NCBI RefSeq assembly: GCF_018977255.1
Contig: NW_024704804.1
Location: 186,001 to 250,000 of the forward strand
DNA: 64,000 nt
Direction: 5' to 3'
Source of the DNA: Callorhinchus milii
Lineage: Eukaryota
Positions within the stretch are counted from its first letter, which is position 1. Each line of letters begins with the position of its first letter. Positions 3,001 through 64,000 of the stretch are shown piece after piece. Made by a program: the position numbers.

Positions 3001-6000
3001 AAAACCCCTCTCATACATCCCCTCTCACAACCCCTCACACAGATCATCACACACACTCTTACACACACGGCAAAACACAGCCCTCACACATAAACCCTCA
3101 CACGCATCCCTCACAAACACACACTCAAAGACACCCCCTCACAAGCAAACTCACAAACAGCCTCACGCAGACTCCCACACACACTCTTCACACACATCCC
3201 TCACACAACTTCACAACCCCTCTCACACACACAAAATCGCACACAACCATCACACACAACCTCACACACAGACTCACTCGACGCTCAAACTGACTGTGAC
3301 CCTCTGAGCTGGATTGTGTCTCCAGGTGTTGGTGTGTTCACACACGGTCTGAGCTCCAGACGTCCCCTCACTACACTTTGTGTTGTTTCTCTCTCTCAGC
3401 TCCGGCCTCTCTGACTCTGGATCCTGACACAGCGAATCCCTACCTCATCTTGTCTGAGGACCTGACCAGCGTCAGAGACGGAGACACACGGCAGCAGCTC
3501 CCTGACTCCCGGAAAAGGTTTGATCCCTGTGTCTGTGTCCTGGGGTCTGAGGGCTTCACATCAGGGAGACATTACTGGGAGGTACAGGTGGCCAACAAGA
3601 CTGAGTGGGATGTGGGATTGGCCCGAGAGTCTGTCAGCAGGAAAGGAAAGATCACACTGACACCAGAGAACGGATTCTGGGCTGTGGTAATGAGAAACGG
3701 GGATCAATATCAAGCTGGTGCATCAGTTCTCCGCCTTTCCCTGAGAGAGAGACCCAGGAAGCTGGGAGTTTACCTGGACTATGAGGGGGGAGAGGTGACA
3801 TTTTACAACGCTGATAACATGTCTCATCTCCACACTTTCACACAGACTTTCACTGAGAAACTTTATCCTTACTTCTATCCCGGTGTTGATGATGGCGGCA
3901 AAATCTGTGATCCTCTGAGGATCTGCCGAGTGACAGATTAATGAGCAGGAAACCCTCAGCCATGACCTGTGTTTGGCGGCGATGGCCACGAGACCTAACC
4001 TTTTATAATCTGTGTCCTTATACAATAAAGCTTGTGGTTTATATGACACCTTTCACACTGGGATCGCAGCTCAATCCTTTCTCGGAATCGACTGTGAAGC
4101 GACGGTTGTGTCTGTGAGCGAATATAAAGCTAATTTGCACGAAGAAAATCTAAAGTAAGTCAACTATGACATAATGAACATCAGTCTGGAGCTTTCAGCT
4201 CCTGATCTCGACAATAATAATCCCCACATTGTACACAGCTCCTCTTGACTTCTGCCAGACGTCTCAAAGCCTATCCCAGGCTTTATAAATCTGCGTTAAT
4301 CCCAATGATACCCATGGGGTTTATCATTGACTTTCTGTTTAAATAATAACGCGCTCTCTGTGTACAACACGGGAAACGGTTTTAAAAGCCCCCATTTCCG
4401 CGGTGTTTCAAGTGCAATAGTTTAATAAACCCCAATGTTTGCGTTAATCACAATGATATAAATACGGTTTTGCGTTAACTTTGGGTTTTGATTGCAATCC
4501 CACAGCCGAGGACAAACACGGGAAACGGGTGTAAATTCCCCTCAGATCATCGGGGTTTAAAGTGCATCAGTGCAAAATATTCCCAATTCTGCATTAATCC
4601 CAAATATATAAACCGCTTTTTGCATTAACTCTCTCCCTCTCTCTCACACTCACTCTCACTTTCTATCTTTCTCTCTGTCAATCAGCCGCTGTAGGCTTTG
4701 CTACAAACTGGAGACAAATAGGGGCGGGGCTGGGTTTGGGGGCGTGGCCGGAGCTGGGGTCGGGCTGGATTGGGGCAGGGGCTGGGGCGGTTGGGGGGGG
4801 GGGGGGCGGGGCCGGGGCTGGGATTCGTTCACGGGGCCAGTGCAGGATTTTGATCTGTTGACCATATTCGGGATTTAAAGCGAGGCCGTCCCTCTCTTAA
4901 AGGGGAGAGGAGGTATTTTGGGGTTAAAGCCCTTTTTATAATAATGATAGTAATCCTTGTATTTGACACAGAGTGTTATCACGTCTTCGGAACGTCTCGA
5001 AGCGCATCACAGTATATACCGTAAACTGTCTCTGTAACAGGTCCTGTAGCTCAGTGATTAGAGCCCTCGCCTCGCAAGCCAGAGACAGGGGGTCAATCCC
5101 CAATTGGGGGCGAAACCTTGTGCAAGTTTCCTCTCTATGCACAGACACACCAAGACACACACACAGATTGAGACACGCGCACACAGGCACACACAAAGAT
5201 ACACCCCGATACACATAACGTCAGAGACACTCATACACAGAAACACAAACGCACAGACACACAGACACAGAGAGACACACACACATACCCAGAGACACAG
5301 ACACACACACACACAGTCCGGGACAGGCGGAGATCGCGATGTCCATCCGAGTGTCCATCACACAAGACTGGCTTGATTCCCACACTGGTTGCCAACCTCC
5401 AGATCAGCTCGAGGGAGACACTTTTCACCTCCCCTAAAGGAGTAGAAGGGATATTTTTTGCTAAACACGCGCTTTCAGGTGTCTGTAAGACGTCAACAGC
5501 CAATATCGAATGACAAGATTATTACTATTATTATTTGCTGAGAATACTGTGGGCAGTTACACAGTGCAGCACGCCCTCTGGTGGCAGTAAAGTGGTGCTG
5601 CAGGGTTTTGGCGGGGCATGAAAGGATTTCACTCTGTAACAATATAATAATAAAAATAATATAATTCTTGCATTTGAGCCAGTGCCTTATCACATCTTCC
5701 AGACGTCTCAAAGCGCTTTACAAAATATGCTGTAAAGTGATTTGACTGTCCATATGTGGATGAAACGCAGCAGCCAATTGCGCACAGCAGCGACCCACAA
5801 ACAGTCATGGATTGAGTGATCAAATTACCATTTTTTTTTCTTGATGGATCATTATTTGGCATTGATACACCCAACCACTCCCATGTTTCTCCTGTATACA
5901 CAAAGACTCTCTGTGGGTCTCTTCTGTATAAACAGCCATTTCCAGTGCCTCCGGTTGTATACACACAACCTCTCCCAGCGTTCCTCCTTTACACACAATG

Positions 6001-7114
6001 AAATGGAGAAACTTCACACCTTCACACCTACCTCTCCCGCTGTCTCTCTTGTATACACACAGCCTCTCCCAGTGTTTCTCCTGTACACGTAGCCTCTTCC
6101 CGTGTCTTCCACTGTATAAACCAACCTCTTCCACTGACTCCCCTGTATATACACAGCCACTGCCAGTGTCCTGCCTGTATACACACAGCTCTCCCAATCT
6201 TTCTCCTGTACAAACAGCCTCTTCCAATATCTCCCACACACACACAGCCTCTCCCGGTGTCTCTCCTGTACACACACAGTATAAAAATATAAATAACTCA
6301 GTATATCAAAACAATTGTATTCGTCTGACAGACTCACACGCTTCAAGGAAAGTAAAATAATTCAGCAAAGTCTTTTGCAAACTTAATCAGCCGTAAGTTG
6401 TGATTAACAAATTGAAACAGCCTAAGACAGGTATTACCTGATTTCTATCACAAGTGTTGGAGAAAATGTCTTATTTCCAAGGGAAGAAATGACGGATTTG
6501 GAATCAAACAAACTTATTTTGCCAATAATTTAATTTCTATTTGCACAATAAAAATCTTCATCATTAGAATATGAATCACTATCAAAAAACTGCATCAAAA
6601 AAAATTATATAAAACTGCAGACAGTATTTTGGATTTAAAGCGAGTCCGTGCTCTTCTTAAAGGGGAGACGTGGTGTTTTGGGCGATTAAAAAGTCTTTTT
6701 GTAATAACAATGATAATAATAATTGTCTTTATCCAAGCGCCTTATCACGACTTTGAGACGTCTCAATGCGCTTCACAGGATAGTGTCGTGACTGAGTTTT
6801 TACAGGATTCAATGCAAAGTGTTTTTGTAAAGTGTCTTGTAACTCAGGGTGTTAGACACACAACCACACACAGTCACACACATATACACACAGAGAGAGA
6901 GACACGCACACACACACACAAAGCACAAACATACACACACAGACAGCGATACACACGAGCATCAACGCAGACAGATACAGAGACAGACAGATGACAGACA
7001 CAGACACAGGCACACAGACACAGAAACGCAGACACAAACACACACAGAAACAAACAGACACACACAGACACACAGGACACACGCACAACACAGGCACAAT
7101 AATACACACTCTTA

Positions 7115-63900: not shown

Positions 63901-64000
63901 TTTATAAAGCCTGGGATAGGCATTGAGACGTCTGGCAGAAGTCAAGAGGAGCTGTGTACAATGTGGGGATTATTATTGTCGAGATCAGGAGCTGAAAGCT

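What the first reader, a model, noticed from the sequence alone, without database searches (positions are those of the whole stretch)
4190..64000. ~15-kb inverted duplication brackets the cluster, with very uneven arm identity
Seen: 4190-18817 mirrors 48850-64000. I count only about 5 mismatches over the outer ~530 bp, and the 17480-17750 segment is also near identical, but the receptor exons and introns in the middle (copy 1 vs copy 4) are much more divergent and differ by SINE insertions. Inference: either a true palindrome homogenised patchily by arm-to-arm conversion, which predicts an inverted TRIM B30.2 exon about 250 bp beyond the window end, or an alternative haplotype contig placed in reverse at the 18818 gap. 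The second case would mean very divergent alleles at the receptor locus.
[Added by the scan's program, not by the reader: the finding's places include an assembly gap (unread letters, written N; its length is only estimated) at 18818 to 18847. Whether the letters on both sides are continuous or in frame is not known: test that first.]
Basis: partly seen in the sequence, partly recalled or inferred. Interest (0 to 1): 0.7.

Follow-up and report, generated by a model that had tools for sequence, protein, structure and literature searches.

The report
Old inverted duplication in receptor cluster
Two 15-kb mirror-image copies of a receptor gene segment bracket a small receptor gene cluster in a cartilaginous fish; they are old paralogous copies reshuffled by gene conversion, an ordinary feature of multigene clusters and very unlikely to be a misplaced second haplotype.

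Summary
Window 4190-18815 mirrors 64000-48851. Overall identity is 88.4% (K2P 0.126), and 300-column windows range from 0.70 to 0.987.

The window is from a cartilaginous fish, not human. The best protein hits are Callorhinchus milii.

The arms carry copies 1 and 4 of a two-exon orphan rhodopsin-type GPCR. Copies 2 and 3 and an exon-1-only remnant lie between them.

The unevenness has three layers:
- **Background:** about 12.6% mismatch.
- **Deeply diverged centre (26.6% mismatch):** it coincides with the receptor intron. Arm B's transcription unit was overwritten by its direct-repeat neighbours.
- **Short 96-99% tracts:** best read as recent conversion. One lies in exon 2, where synonymous divergence collapses.

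Each arm has one private SINE insertion.

Arm A's homology runs to the last base before the N run, so its inner end is a contig end. Orientation rests on the scaffold join and is untested.

A haplotig is very unlikely at this divergence. The predicted inverted TRIM exon beyond 64000 could not be tested. This is an ordinary kind of structure and of low interest.

The parts
4190..18817 (+). Arm A of the inverted duplication. It carries receptor copy 1. Its outer limit is set only by the window end of arm B, and its inner limit is the contig end at the N run.
48848..64000 (-). Arm B of the inverted duplication. It carries receptor copy 4 and is cut by the window end at 64000.
18818..18847 (.). 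Assembly gap (30 N). Arm A homology runs to its left edge. Sequence to its right (18848-20213) is unrelated to arm B's continuation. No coding exon abuts it.
3400..3941 (+). Last exon of a TRIM gene (PRY + SPRY = B30.2). It follows a ...ctctcag acceptor and ends in a TAA stop, with AATAAA at about 4024-4029. It lies about 250 bp outside arm A.
10392..10491 (+). Receptor copy 1, exon 1 (ATG to GTAAT donor).
10492..12214 (+). Receptor copy 1 intron (1723 bp). This is the most divergent stretch between the arms (identity 0.734, K2P 0.33). It holds the arm-A-only SINE (10973-11219) and a 144-bp arm-A-only insertion (11410-11553).
12215..13113 (+). Receptor copy 1, exon 2 (7tm_1 domain, intact, stop included).
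57276..57375 (-). Receptor copy 4, exon 1.
55066..55964 (-). Receptor copy 4, exon 2 (7tm_1, intact).
54950..57503 (-). Approximate stretch of arm B (from about 130 bp upstream of the ATG to the end of exon 2) where copy 4 is nearer to copies 2 and 3 than to copy 1. Inferred to have been replaced from the direct repeats, with alternating best donors.
25189..27505 (-). Receptor copy 2 (exon 1 27406-27505, exon 2 25189-26087), intact, in the spacer.
40967..43285 (-). Receptor copy 3 (exon 1 43186-43285, exon 2 40967-41865), intact, in the spacer. Its exon 2 is 93% identical to C. milii P0003.
33372..33471 (-). Exon-1-only remnant of a fifth receptor unit (unit about 31316-35105). Exon 2 is deleted and the donor is GTTAT.
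53709..54030 (-). Arm-B-only full-length tRNA-derived SINE with an (ATT)n tail, precisely absent from arm A.
10973..11219 (-). Arm-A-only 5'-truncated copy of the same young SINE family, precisely absent from arm B.
4190..4725 (.). Outer high-identity tract: 5 mismatches in 536 bp, including a 224-bp perfect run. It is paired with 64000-63465.
12223..12526 (+). High-identity tract in the 5' third of exon 2 (8 mismatches in 304 bp). Synonymous divergence is low for every pair of copies.
16174..18355 (.). Cluster of inner high-identity tracts: 16174-16369, 16485-16774, 17047-17247, 17284-17799 and 17951-18355, each 96.8-98.0% identical, separated by stretches at 84-90%.

Best explanation
The two arms are old paralogous copies of a ~15-kb segment that carries one gene of a tandem cluster of orphan rhodopsin-type receptors in a cartilaginous fish. 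As assembled they lie in inverted orientation around a ~30-kb spacer that holds two more intact copies and one remnant. The uneven identity comes from three superimposed histories. (1) A background divergence of about 12-13% has accumulated since the inverted duplication. That duplication came after an older SINE shared by both arms and before a burst of young SINEs that left one private copy in each arm. (2) The transcription unit in arm B (copy 4) was replaced by sequence from the neighbouring direct repeats (copies 2 and 3). This happened through repeated gene conversion or unequal exchange. As a result, the arm-to-arm comparison in the gene body now measures a much older split, with K about 0.33 in the intron and at synonymous sites of the 3' part of exon 2. 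Only purifying selection on the exons masks this. (3) Short tracts of 126-590 bp at 96-99% identity are most likely recent non-crossover conversion between the inverted arms. In exon 2 this conversion involves all copies. Shown: the mirror, the mosaic, the gene models and the private SINEs. Inferred: the direction of replacement, conversion as the cause of the high-identity tracts, and the inverted orientation, which depends on the scaffold join at the gap.
For: - Mirror and heterogeneity. The 3-state HMM has emissions 0.029, 0.126 and 0.266. Its most divergent state spans A 10497-12221, against an intron of 10492-12214.
- Four intact two-exon genes plus a remnant.
- Grouping of copies: (c1,c4)|(c2,c3) holds at 63 of 66 informative sites in 9700-10499 and at 47 of 62 in 12900-14099, but at only 2 of 29 in intron 11300-12099. 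In 10500-12099, c1 carries 217 of 350 private changes.
- Nearest relative of copy 4: identity to c2 or c3 is 0.83-0.99 from c1 coordinate ~10264 to ~13190, with alternating best donor (c3 0.95 at 11522-11666, c2 0.97-0.99 at 11891-12115). Identity of c4 to c1 is 0.62-0.78 in the intron. Copy 1 is nearest again at 13390-13860.
- The c1 versus c2/c3 intron identity (0.65-0.73) matches the c1/c4 versus c2/c3 identity in the upstream flank (0.72-0.74 at 9699-9963). One replacement of c4 therefore explains both distances.
- Synonymous divergence c1-c4 is 0.069 in the 5' third of exon 2 and 0.335 in the rest. dN/dS is 0.27-0.52 over the whole exon.
- Mismatch density drops abruptly about 5 bp into exon 2.
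- Private SINEs are 93-96% identical to other copies in the window. The shared SINE at 15608-15910 / 51782-52104 sits in alignment windows at 0.866-0.875.
- None of 10 long ORFs in the far flanks and elsewhere reaches a Pfam cut-off, and 5 other ORFs gave nothing.
- The tract 16174-16369 is 97.4% identical between the arms, but the third copy of that stretch (20214-20651) is only 72-73% identical to either arm. It is therefore not a deeply constrained element.
Against: - Arm A ends exactly at the gap, and nothing to the right of the gap continues the homology. The inverted orientation and the true inner boundary are therefore not shown by sequence.
- The direction of replacement (c4 overwritten rather than c1) rests on parsimony without an outgroup.
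- In 13989-15734 copies 1, 2 and 4 are about equidistant (0.82-0.92), which the simple two-lineage scheme does not predict.
- The high-identity tracts show no GC enrichment (GC 0.33-0.57 against 0.33-0.52 in background tracts), so there is no GC-biased-conversion signature.
- Two of the 11 tracts lie in tandem or microsatellite sequence (6019-6286, and part of 6471-7062 / 7172-7372), where the alignment is unreliable.
- The sharp change at the exon-2 boundary would also fit very strong constraint.
Confidence: 0.7

Rival explanations
1. Haplotig: the contig left of the gap is the alternative haplotype of 48848-64000+, scaffolded in reverse. Copies 1 and 4 would then be extremely divergent alleles.
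For: Arm A homology stops exactly at a contig end. Divergence peaks at the receptor gene and falls to 1% at the outer edge, a profile that balanced haplotypes can also give.
Against: Background mismatch is 12.6% over most of 14 kb, not only at the gene. The intron K2P is 0.33 and exon-2 dS is 0.22. Each arm has one private SINE insertion, and there are 11 indels of 30 bp or more. In the gene body copy 1 is the outlier to copies 2, 3 and 4 rather than the partner of copy 4. In the exon-2 protein tree copies 1 and 4 are not resolved as sisters. From general knowledge, allelic divergence of this size over neutral sequence is not known in vertebrates outside a few immune regions.
Confidence: 0.04
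2. Scaffolding error: the left contig is real paralogous sequence but is mis-oriented or misplaced at the gap. Copy 1 would then be one more head-to-tail member of the tandem array, or would lie elsewhere, and there would be no palindrome.
For: The only link between arm A and the rest is an N run. The homology is truncated by that contig end, and the sequence to the right of the gap is unrelated to arm B's continuation. All other units (copies 2, 3 and 4 and the remnant) are direct repeats.
Against: Nothing in the sequence contradicts the given orientation. Inverted members are common in tandem receptor clusters (general knowledge).
Confidence: 0.15
3. The high-identity tracts are conserved functional elements (regulatory sequence or unannotated exons) held by purifying selection, not conversion tracts.
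For: The exon-2 tract starts within about 5 bp of the splice acceptor and covers the conserved TM1-TM3 region. The tracts cluster near the arm ends.
Against: Synonymous sites are homogenised too: dS is 0.069 for c1-c4 and 0.013 for c2-c4 in the 5' third, against 0.335 and 0.247 in the rest. The outer tract lies beyond the first AATAAA of the TRIM gene. No ORF in the flanks reaches a Pfam cut-off (0 of 10). Where a third copy exists (20214-20651), it is only 72-73% identical to the 97.4% tract 16174-16369.
Confidence: 0.12
4. Technical homogenisation: consensus or polishing with reads mis-mapped between the paralogous arms produced artificial near-identical patches.
For: The patches are short and numerous and become denser toward a contig end.
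Against: At 87% background identity, cross-mapping of long reads is unlikely (inference). The patches are collinear and sharply bounded, and the same kind of patch is seen between copies 2, 3 and 4 inside one gap-free contig.
Confidence: 0.04

Closest known systems
Y-chromosome-type palindromes (P1-P8) kept alike by arm-to-arm gene conversion
   Same: Two gene-bearing arms lie in inverted orientation around a spacer. There are local tracts of near identity that fit non-crossover conversion between the arms.
   Different: Those palindromes keep more than 99.9% identity along the whole arm (as stated in passages of PMC13688818 read). Here the arms are 88.4% identical overall, and only about 3.6 kb in 11 tracts is in the low-divergence state.
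Old, drifting palindromic segmental duplications such as mouse chr12 SD12A1
   Same: It has inverted arms at about 93% identity, plus a few block pairs at 97-98.6% that are read as later local events (abstract and passages of PMC13688818). This resembles the background-plus-patches pattern here.
   Different: SD12A1 spans megabases, its identity is 'broadly uniform', and its authors see no conversion. Here the scale is 15 kb and heterogeneity is extreme (0.70-0.99). The arms also exchange sequence with direct repeats in the spacer.
Concerted / birth-and-death evolution of tandem chemoreceptor-like GPCR clusters (general knowledge)
   Same: There are tandem and inverted copies, a pseudogenised remnant, mosaic relatedness with switching nearest neighbours, and dN/dS of 0.27-0.52.
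   Different: The receptor family here is an orphan group specific to cartilaginous fishes. No expression or ligand is known, and nothing shows that it is chemosensory.
Retained haplotigs in diploid assemblies
   Same: A duplicated block ends at a contig boundary next to an N run.
   Different: Divergence is one to two orders of magnitude above ordinary heterozygosity, and the arms differ by private transposon insertions. Read depth could not be examined.

Membership tests
Palindrome homogenised by arm-to-arm conversion (Y-chromosome type) | Two arms in inverted orientation flanking a spacer | tested here: inconclusive
   This is met in the sequence as given. However, the arms are joined only across an N run at which arm A's homology is truncated, so the orientation is unverified.
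Palindrome homogenised by arm-to-arm conversion (Y-chromosome type) | Near-complete arm identity (99% or more) along the whole arm | tested here: not met
   Overall identity is 0.884, and 300-column windows range from 0.70 to 0.987.
Palindrome homogenised by arm-to-arm conversion (Y-chromosome type) | Evidence of sequence transfer between the arms | tested here: met
   There are 11 low-divergence tracts. The longest perfect run is 224 bp, against a shuffle maximum of 112. In the 5' part of exon 2, dS is 0.069, against 0.335 in the 3' part. The cause (conversion) is inferred.
Haplotig (retained alternative haplotype) | Allelic-level identity over the duplicated block | tested here: not met
   K2P is 0.126 overall and 0.33 in the intron. 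There are private SINEs and 11 indels of 30 bp or more.
Haplotig (retained alternative haplotype) | Half read depth on both copies | not testable with these tools
   No reads are available.
Haplotig (retained alternative haplotype) | The duplicated block ends at a contig boundary | tested here: met
   Homology runs to the last base before the N run.
Rhodopsin-family GPCR (Pfam 7tm_1) | Full-length match to PF00001 above the gathering score | tested here: met
   All 4 of 4 exon-2 ORFs match: 79.2-88.1 bits against a cut-off of 30.5, covering profile positions 1-260 or 2-260 of 260.
GPR139 (the name databases give the nearest proteins) | GPR139 is the closest characterised receptor | tested here: inconclusive
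   No chain named GPR139 is among the 29 PDB sequences matched at E <= 1. The best matches are CCR2 (3.8e-08), GPR15 and NMUR2. That the PDB holds GPR139 structures is recalled, not checked. No phylogeny with true GPR139 was made.
TRIM protein (RING, B-box, coiled coil, PRY/SPRY) | C-terminal PRY + SPRY (B30.2) domain | tested here: met
   PRY scores 88.1 bits and SPRY 94.7 bits. The best-identity hits are C. milii 'zinc-binding protein A33-like' proteins at 84-86%, which carry RING and B-box domains.
TRIM protein (RING, B-box, coiled coil, PRY/SPRY) | RING, B-box and coiled-coil exons upstream | not testable with these tools
   They would lie upstream of the window start. Only the last exon is in the window.
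tRNA-derived SINE | tRNA-like head, family-specific body and a simple-repeat tail, with precise presence or absence between paralogous sites | tested here: met
   Rfam gives tRNA hits at 53955-54026 (48.4 bits), 22187-22258, 1366-1437 and 15613-15684. The (ATT)n tail and precise absence from the other arm were seen. Target-site duplications were not clear.

The most novel reading that the evidence does not exclude
The two 'arms' are not paralogues but two ancient allelic lineages of one receptor locus, kept by balancing selection and recombined into a mosaic. One of them was scaffolded in reverse at the gap. Divergence peaking at the receptor (27% in the intron) and falling to 1% at the edge would then be the footprint of a long-lived balanced polymorphism at an orphan receptor of cartilaginous fishes.
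Probability: 0.04. Interest if true: 0.7.

Novelty: new member of a known kind. Interest (0 to 1): 0.22.

Why it matters
This is a worked example of how a multigene receptor cluster evolves. An old inverted segmental duplication exchanges sequence both with its mirror copy and with direct repeats lying between the arms. As a result, "arm identity" measures different ages in different places.

In practical terms:
- Annotators and assembly curators should treat copy 1 and copy 4 as distinct intact genes, not as alleles to be purged.
- The scaffold join at the gap needs checking.
- If the orientation is right, the 99%-identical outer tracts could mediate inversion of the ~30-kb array.

The mechanisms are all known kinds, so the general interest is low.

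Tried and rejected
- **Synteny test of the predicted second TRIM.** I searched with the B30.2 exon for long proteins. The C. milii TRIM hits at 84-86% identity are not on the 146,321-bp contig that holds the receptor homologues P0001 and P0003. This is uninformative either way.
- **Hidden genes under the high-identity tracts.** Pfam was run on 10 long ORFs. None of the 10 reached a cut-off; one SelP_N match scored 15.2 bits against a cut-off of 23.2. Five further ORFs also gave nothing.
- **GC-biased conversion signature.** The GC content of the low-divergence tracts shows no consistent excess.
- **Continuation of the mirror across the gap.** Sensitive blastn (word size 9, E 1e-5) finds no match between 18848-20213 and 47329-48850.
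- **Literature.** Searches for the receptor expansion in cartilaginous fishes and passages of PMC12294341 gave nothing relevant.
- **Target-site duplications of the two private SINEs.** These are not clear in the alignment.
- **Not possible here.** No read depth, long reads or Hi-C were available.
- **Deliberately left out.** The spliced exon 1 + exon 2 protein was never joined or searched. All comparisons are per exon, so an exact-sequence look-up of the full proteins stayed undone.
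Full report
**Observation.** The window has one N run, 18818-18847, of 30 N. Self-comparison shows a collinear chain of inverted matches. 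It runs from 4190<->64000 to 18815<->48851, with 81.4-87.7% identity per HSP.

A global alignment of the arms has 13,963 aligned base pairs with 1,613 mismatches (identity 0.884, K2P 0.126). It has 11 indels of 30 bp or more.

- 5 mismatches in 530 bp at 4190-4719.
- 6 mismatches in 271 bp at 17480-17750.

Identity per 300 columns runs from 0.70 to 0.987. The variance of those windows is 0.00405. In 1000 shuffles the mean was 0.00033 and the maximum 0.00059. The longest perfect run is 224 bp, against a shuffle maximum of 112.

**Organism and genes.** The interspersed repeats are tRNA-derived SINEs (4 Rfam tRNA hits; sequence).

The nearest proteins are from Callorhinchus milii:
- 82-85% identity for the receptor. 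All 120 listed hits are from cartilaginous fishes, and 1879 proteins reach E <= 1e-10 among 3985 candidates.
- 84-86% identity for the TRIM exon.

The contig is therefore from a chimaera or another cartilaginous fish, not human.

Four ORFs are full-length Pfam 7tm_1 matches, and 3300-3938 holds PRY + SPRY. Searching exon by exon with C. milii protein P0003 shows exon 1 in five places and exon 2 in four. Splice sites are consistent: ATG, GTAAT donor...cacag acceptor and a stop. This gives four intact two-exon genes:
- copy 1 on the + strand in arm A;
- copies 2, 3 and 4 on the - strand, with copy 4 in arm B;
- one exon-1-only remnant.

The label "probable GPR139" comes from the databases. No GPR139-named chain is among 29 PDB matches at E <= 1. 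The best matches are weak ones to CCR2, GPR15 and NMUR2. I therefore call the receptor an orphan rhodopsin-type receptor.

**The gap, tested first.** No coding exon abuts the gap. The nearest exons end at 13113 and 25189. ORFs next to the gap have no Pfam match.

Arm A's similarity to arm B continues to the very last base before the N run. The 1.4 kb to the right of the gap has no similarity to arm B's continuation (48850 down to 47329), even at word size 9.

So the two sides of the gap are not continuous as judged by the paralogous arm. Arm A's inner "end" is a contig end, the true inner boundary is unknown, and the inverted orientation rests on the scaffold join alone. I made no attempt to infer the masked letters.

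**Anatomy of the unevenness.** A 3-state HMM fits far better than one rate (log-likelihood -4769.8 against -4997.4). Its mismatch rates are 0.029, 0.126 and 0.266.

The most divergent state covers A 10497-12221, which is essentially the copy-1 intron (10492-12214).

Identity between the arms by compartment:

| Compartment | Identity |
|---|---|
| Outer patch | 0.982 |
| Far 5' flank | 0.907 |
| Proximal 5' flank | 0.847 |
| Exon 1 | 0.92 |
| Intron | 0.734 (K2P 0.33) |
| Exon 2 | 0.901 |
| Proximal 3' flank | 0.861 |
| Far 3' flank | 0.932 |

So the intron, not the exons, is the divergent part.

**Why the centre is divergent.** I aligned all four units. In that alignment copy 1 groups with copy 4 against copies 2+3 as follows:
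- 63 of 66 informative sites upstream of and in exon 1 (9700-10499);
- 47 of 62 sites at the end of exon 2 and downstream (12900-14099);
- only 2 of 29 sites in the intron (11300-12099).

In 10500-12099 copy 1 alone carries 217 of 350 private changes.

A sliding comparison shows copy 4 nearest to copies 2 or 3 (0.83-0.99) from about c1 coordinate 10264 to 13190. That stretch is the whole transcription unit. The best donor alternates: c3 at 0.95 for 11522-11666, and c2 at 0.97-0.99 for 11891-12115. Outside that stretch copy 4 is nearest to copy 1.

The intron identity of copy 1 to copies 2 and 3 (0.65-0.73) equals the identity between the (1,4) and (2,3) lineages in the upstream flank (0.72-0.74). 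One replacement of copy 4's gene body by sequence of the (2,3) type explains both the low 1-4 identity and the high 4-2/3 identity. Overwriting of copy 1 from outside would explain only the first. The direction rests on parsimony; there is no outgroup.

**The high-identity tracts.** Eleven tracts fall in the low-divergence state. They include 4190-4725 (5 mismatches in 536 bp), 12223-12526 (8 in 304 bp) and five tracts between 16174 and 18355.

In exon 2 the synonymous divergence between copies 1 and 4 is 0.069 in the 5' third and 0.335 in the rest. It is low for every pair in the 5' third, for example 0.013 for copies 2-4. Mismatch density falls abruptly a few bases into the exon. Low synonymous divergence argues for homogenisation, including with the inverted copy 1, rather than protein constraint alone.

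Other evidence bearing on the tracts:
- The outer tract lies beyond the first AATAAA after the TRIM stop codon.
- No flank ORF reaches a Pfam cut-off (0 of 10).
- Where a third copy exists (20214-20651), it is only 72-73% identical to a tract that is 97.4% identical between the arms.

Evidence against conversion:
- There is no GC enrichment in the tracts.
- Two or three tracts lie in tandem or microsatellite sequence, where the alignment is unreliable.

**Relative timing.**
- A SINE shared by both arms (15608-15910 and 51782-52104) lies in alignment windows at 0.866-0.875, like the background.
- The private SINEs (10973-11219 in arm A, 53709-54030 in arm B) are each precisely absent from the other arm.
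- These private copies are 93-96% identical to other copies of the young subfamily in the window.
- The inferred order is: old SINE, then duplication, then the young SINE burst, then the latest conversion tracts.

In a tree of exon-2 proteins, copy 3 pairs with C. milii P0003 (support 98/97, 93% identity). Copy 2 is nearest to P0001 (92%). Copies 1 and 4 are unresolved.

**Haplotig and other rivals.**
- **Haplotig.** It would need 12.6% background and 27% intron divergence between alleles. It would also need private transposon insertions and a copy 1 that is the outlier to all three other copies in the gene body. I give it about 4%.
- **Mis-oriented or misplaced left contig.** Sequence cannot exclude this; I give it about 15%.
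- **Constraint or polishing artefacts as the cause of the patches.** These are less likely, for the reasons above.

It could not be tested: no eukaryotic contig collection was open, and the TRIM protein search gave no synteny information.

**Comparison with known kinds.**
- Y-chromosome palindromes keep more than 99.9% arm identity by conversion.
- The mouse SD12A1 palindromic duplication has about 93% uniform identity, with a few blocks at 97-98.6% (abstract and passages of PMC13688818).
- The present case is small (15 kb), old, extremely heterogeneous, and exchanges sequence with direct repeats in its own spacer. That is what birth-and-death and concerted evolution in tandem receptor clusters usually produce (general knowledge).

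I found nothing in print on this cluster or on the receptor expansion in cartilaginous fishes (searches; passages read). Paper supplements were not consulted.

**Verdict.** The structure is real and well explained. It is a new instance of a known kind and of low general interest. The scaffold join at the gap needs checking.

Noticed in passing
window 12215-13113, 25189-26087, 40967-41865, 55066-55964: The receptor family is labelled 'probable GPR139' in databases, but it shows no GPR139-named match among 29 PDB hits at E <= 1. It is hugely expanded in cartilaginous fishes: 1879 proteins reach E <= 1e-10, and all 120 listed are sharks, rays or chimaeras. I found no paper on this expansion. It could be an undescribed lineage-specific, possibly chemosensory, family.
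   Followed up: partly
window 38577-38810 (- strand): A fragment of a much more divergent GPCR lies between the remnant unit and copy 3. It is 38% identical to residues 192-269 of P0003 and is probably an old pseudogene piece.
   Followed up: no
window 31316-35105: A fifth receptor unit keeps exon 1 (33372-33471, with a weakened GTTAT donor) but has lost the intron's 3' part and exon 2.
   Followed up: partly
window 1729-3270: A 1.5-kb degenerate (CCCTCACACACA)n array, about 126 copies at 63% matches, lies just upstream of the TRIM B30.2 exon, presumably within the TRIM intron.
   Followed up: no
window 58551-59110: A locally self-complementary stretch in arm B (a 570-bp inverted self-match at 75%). 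It overlaps an arm-B-only 145-bp insertion (58602-58746) and may be a hairpin-forming transposon remnant.
   Followed up: no
window 20681-21466 and 22289-23080: An internal direct duplication at 65% identity within the copy-2 unit. Both copies match one stretch of arm B (52154-52909).
   Followed up: no
window 18848-20213 and 47329-48850: Two stretches of about 1.4-1.5 kb are unique within the window. One lies just right of the gap and one just inside arm B's inner end. Neither has a Pfam match in its long ORFs, and their origin is unknown.
   Followed up: partly
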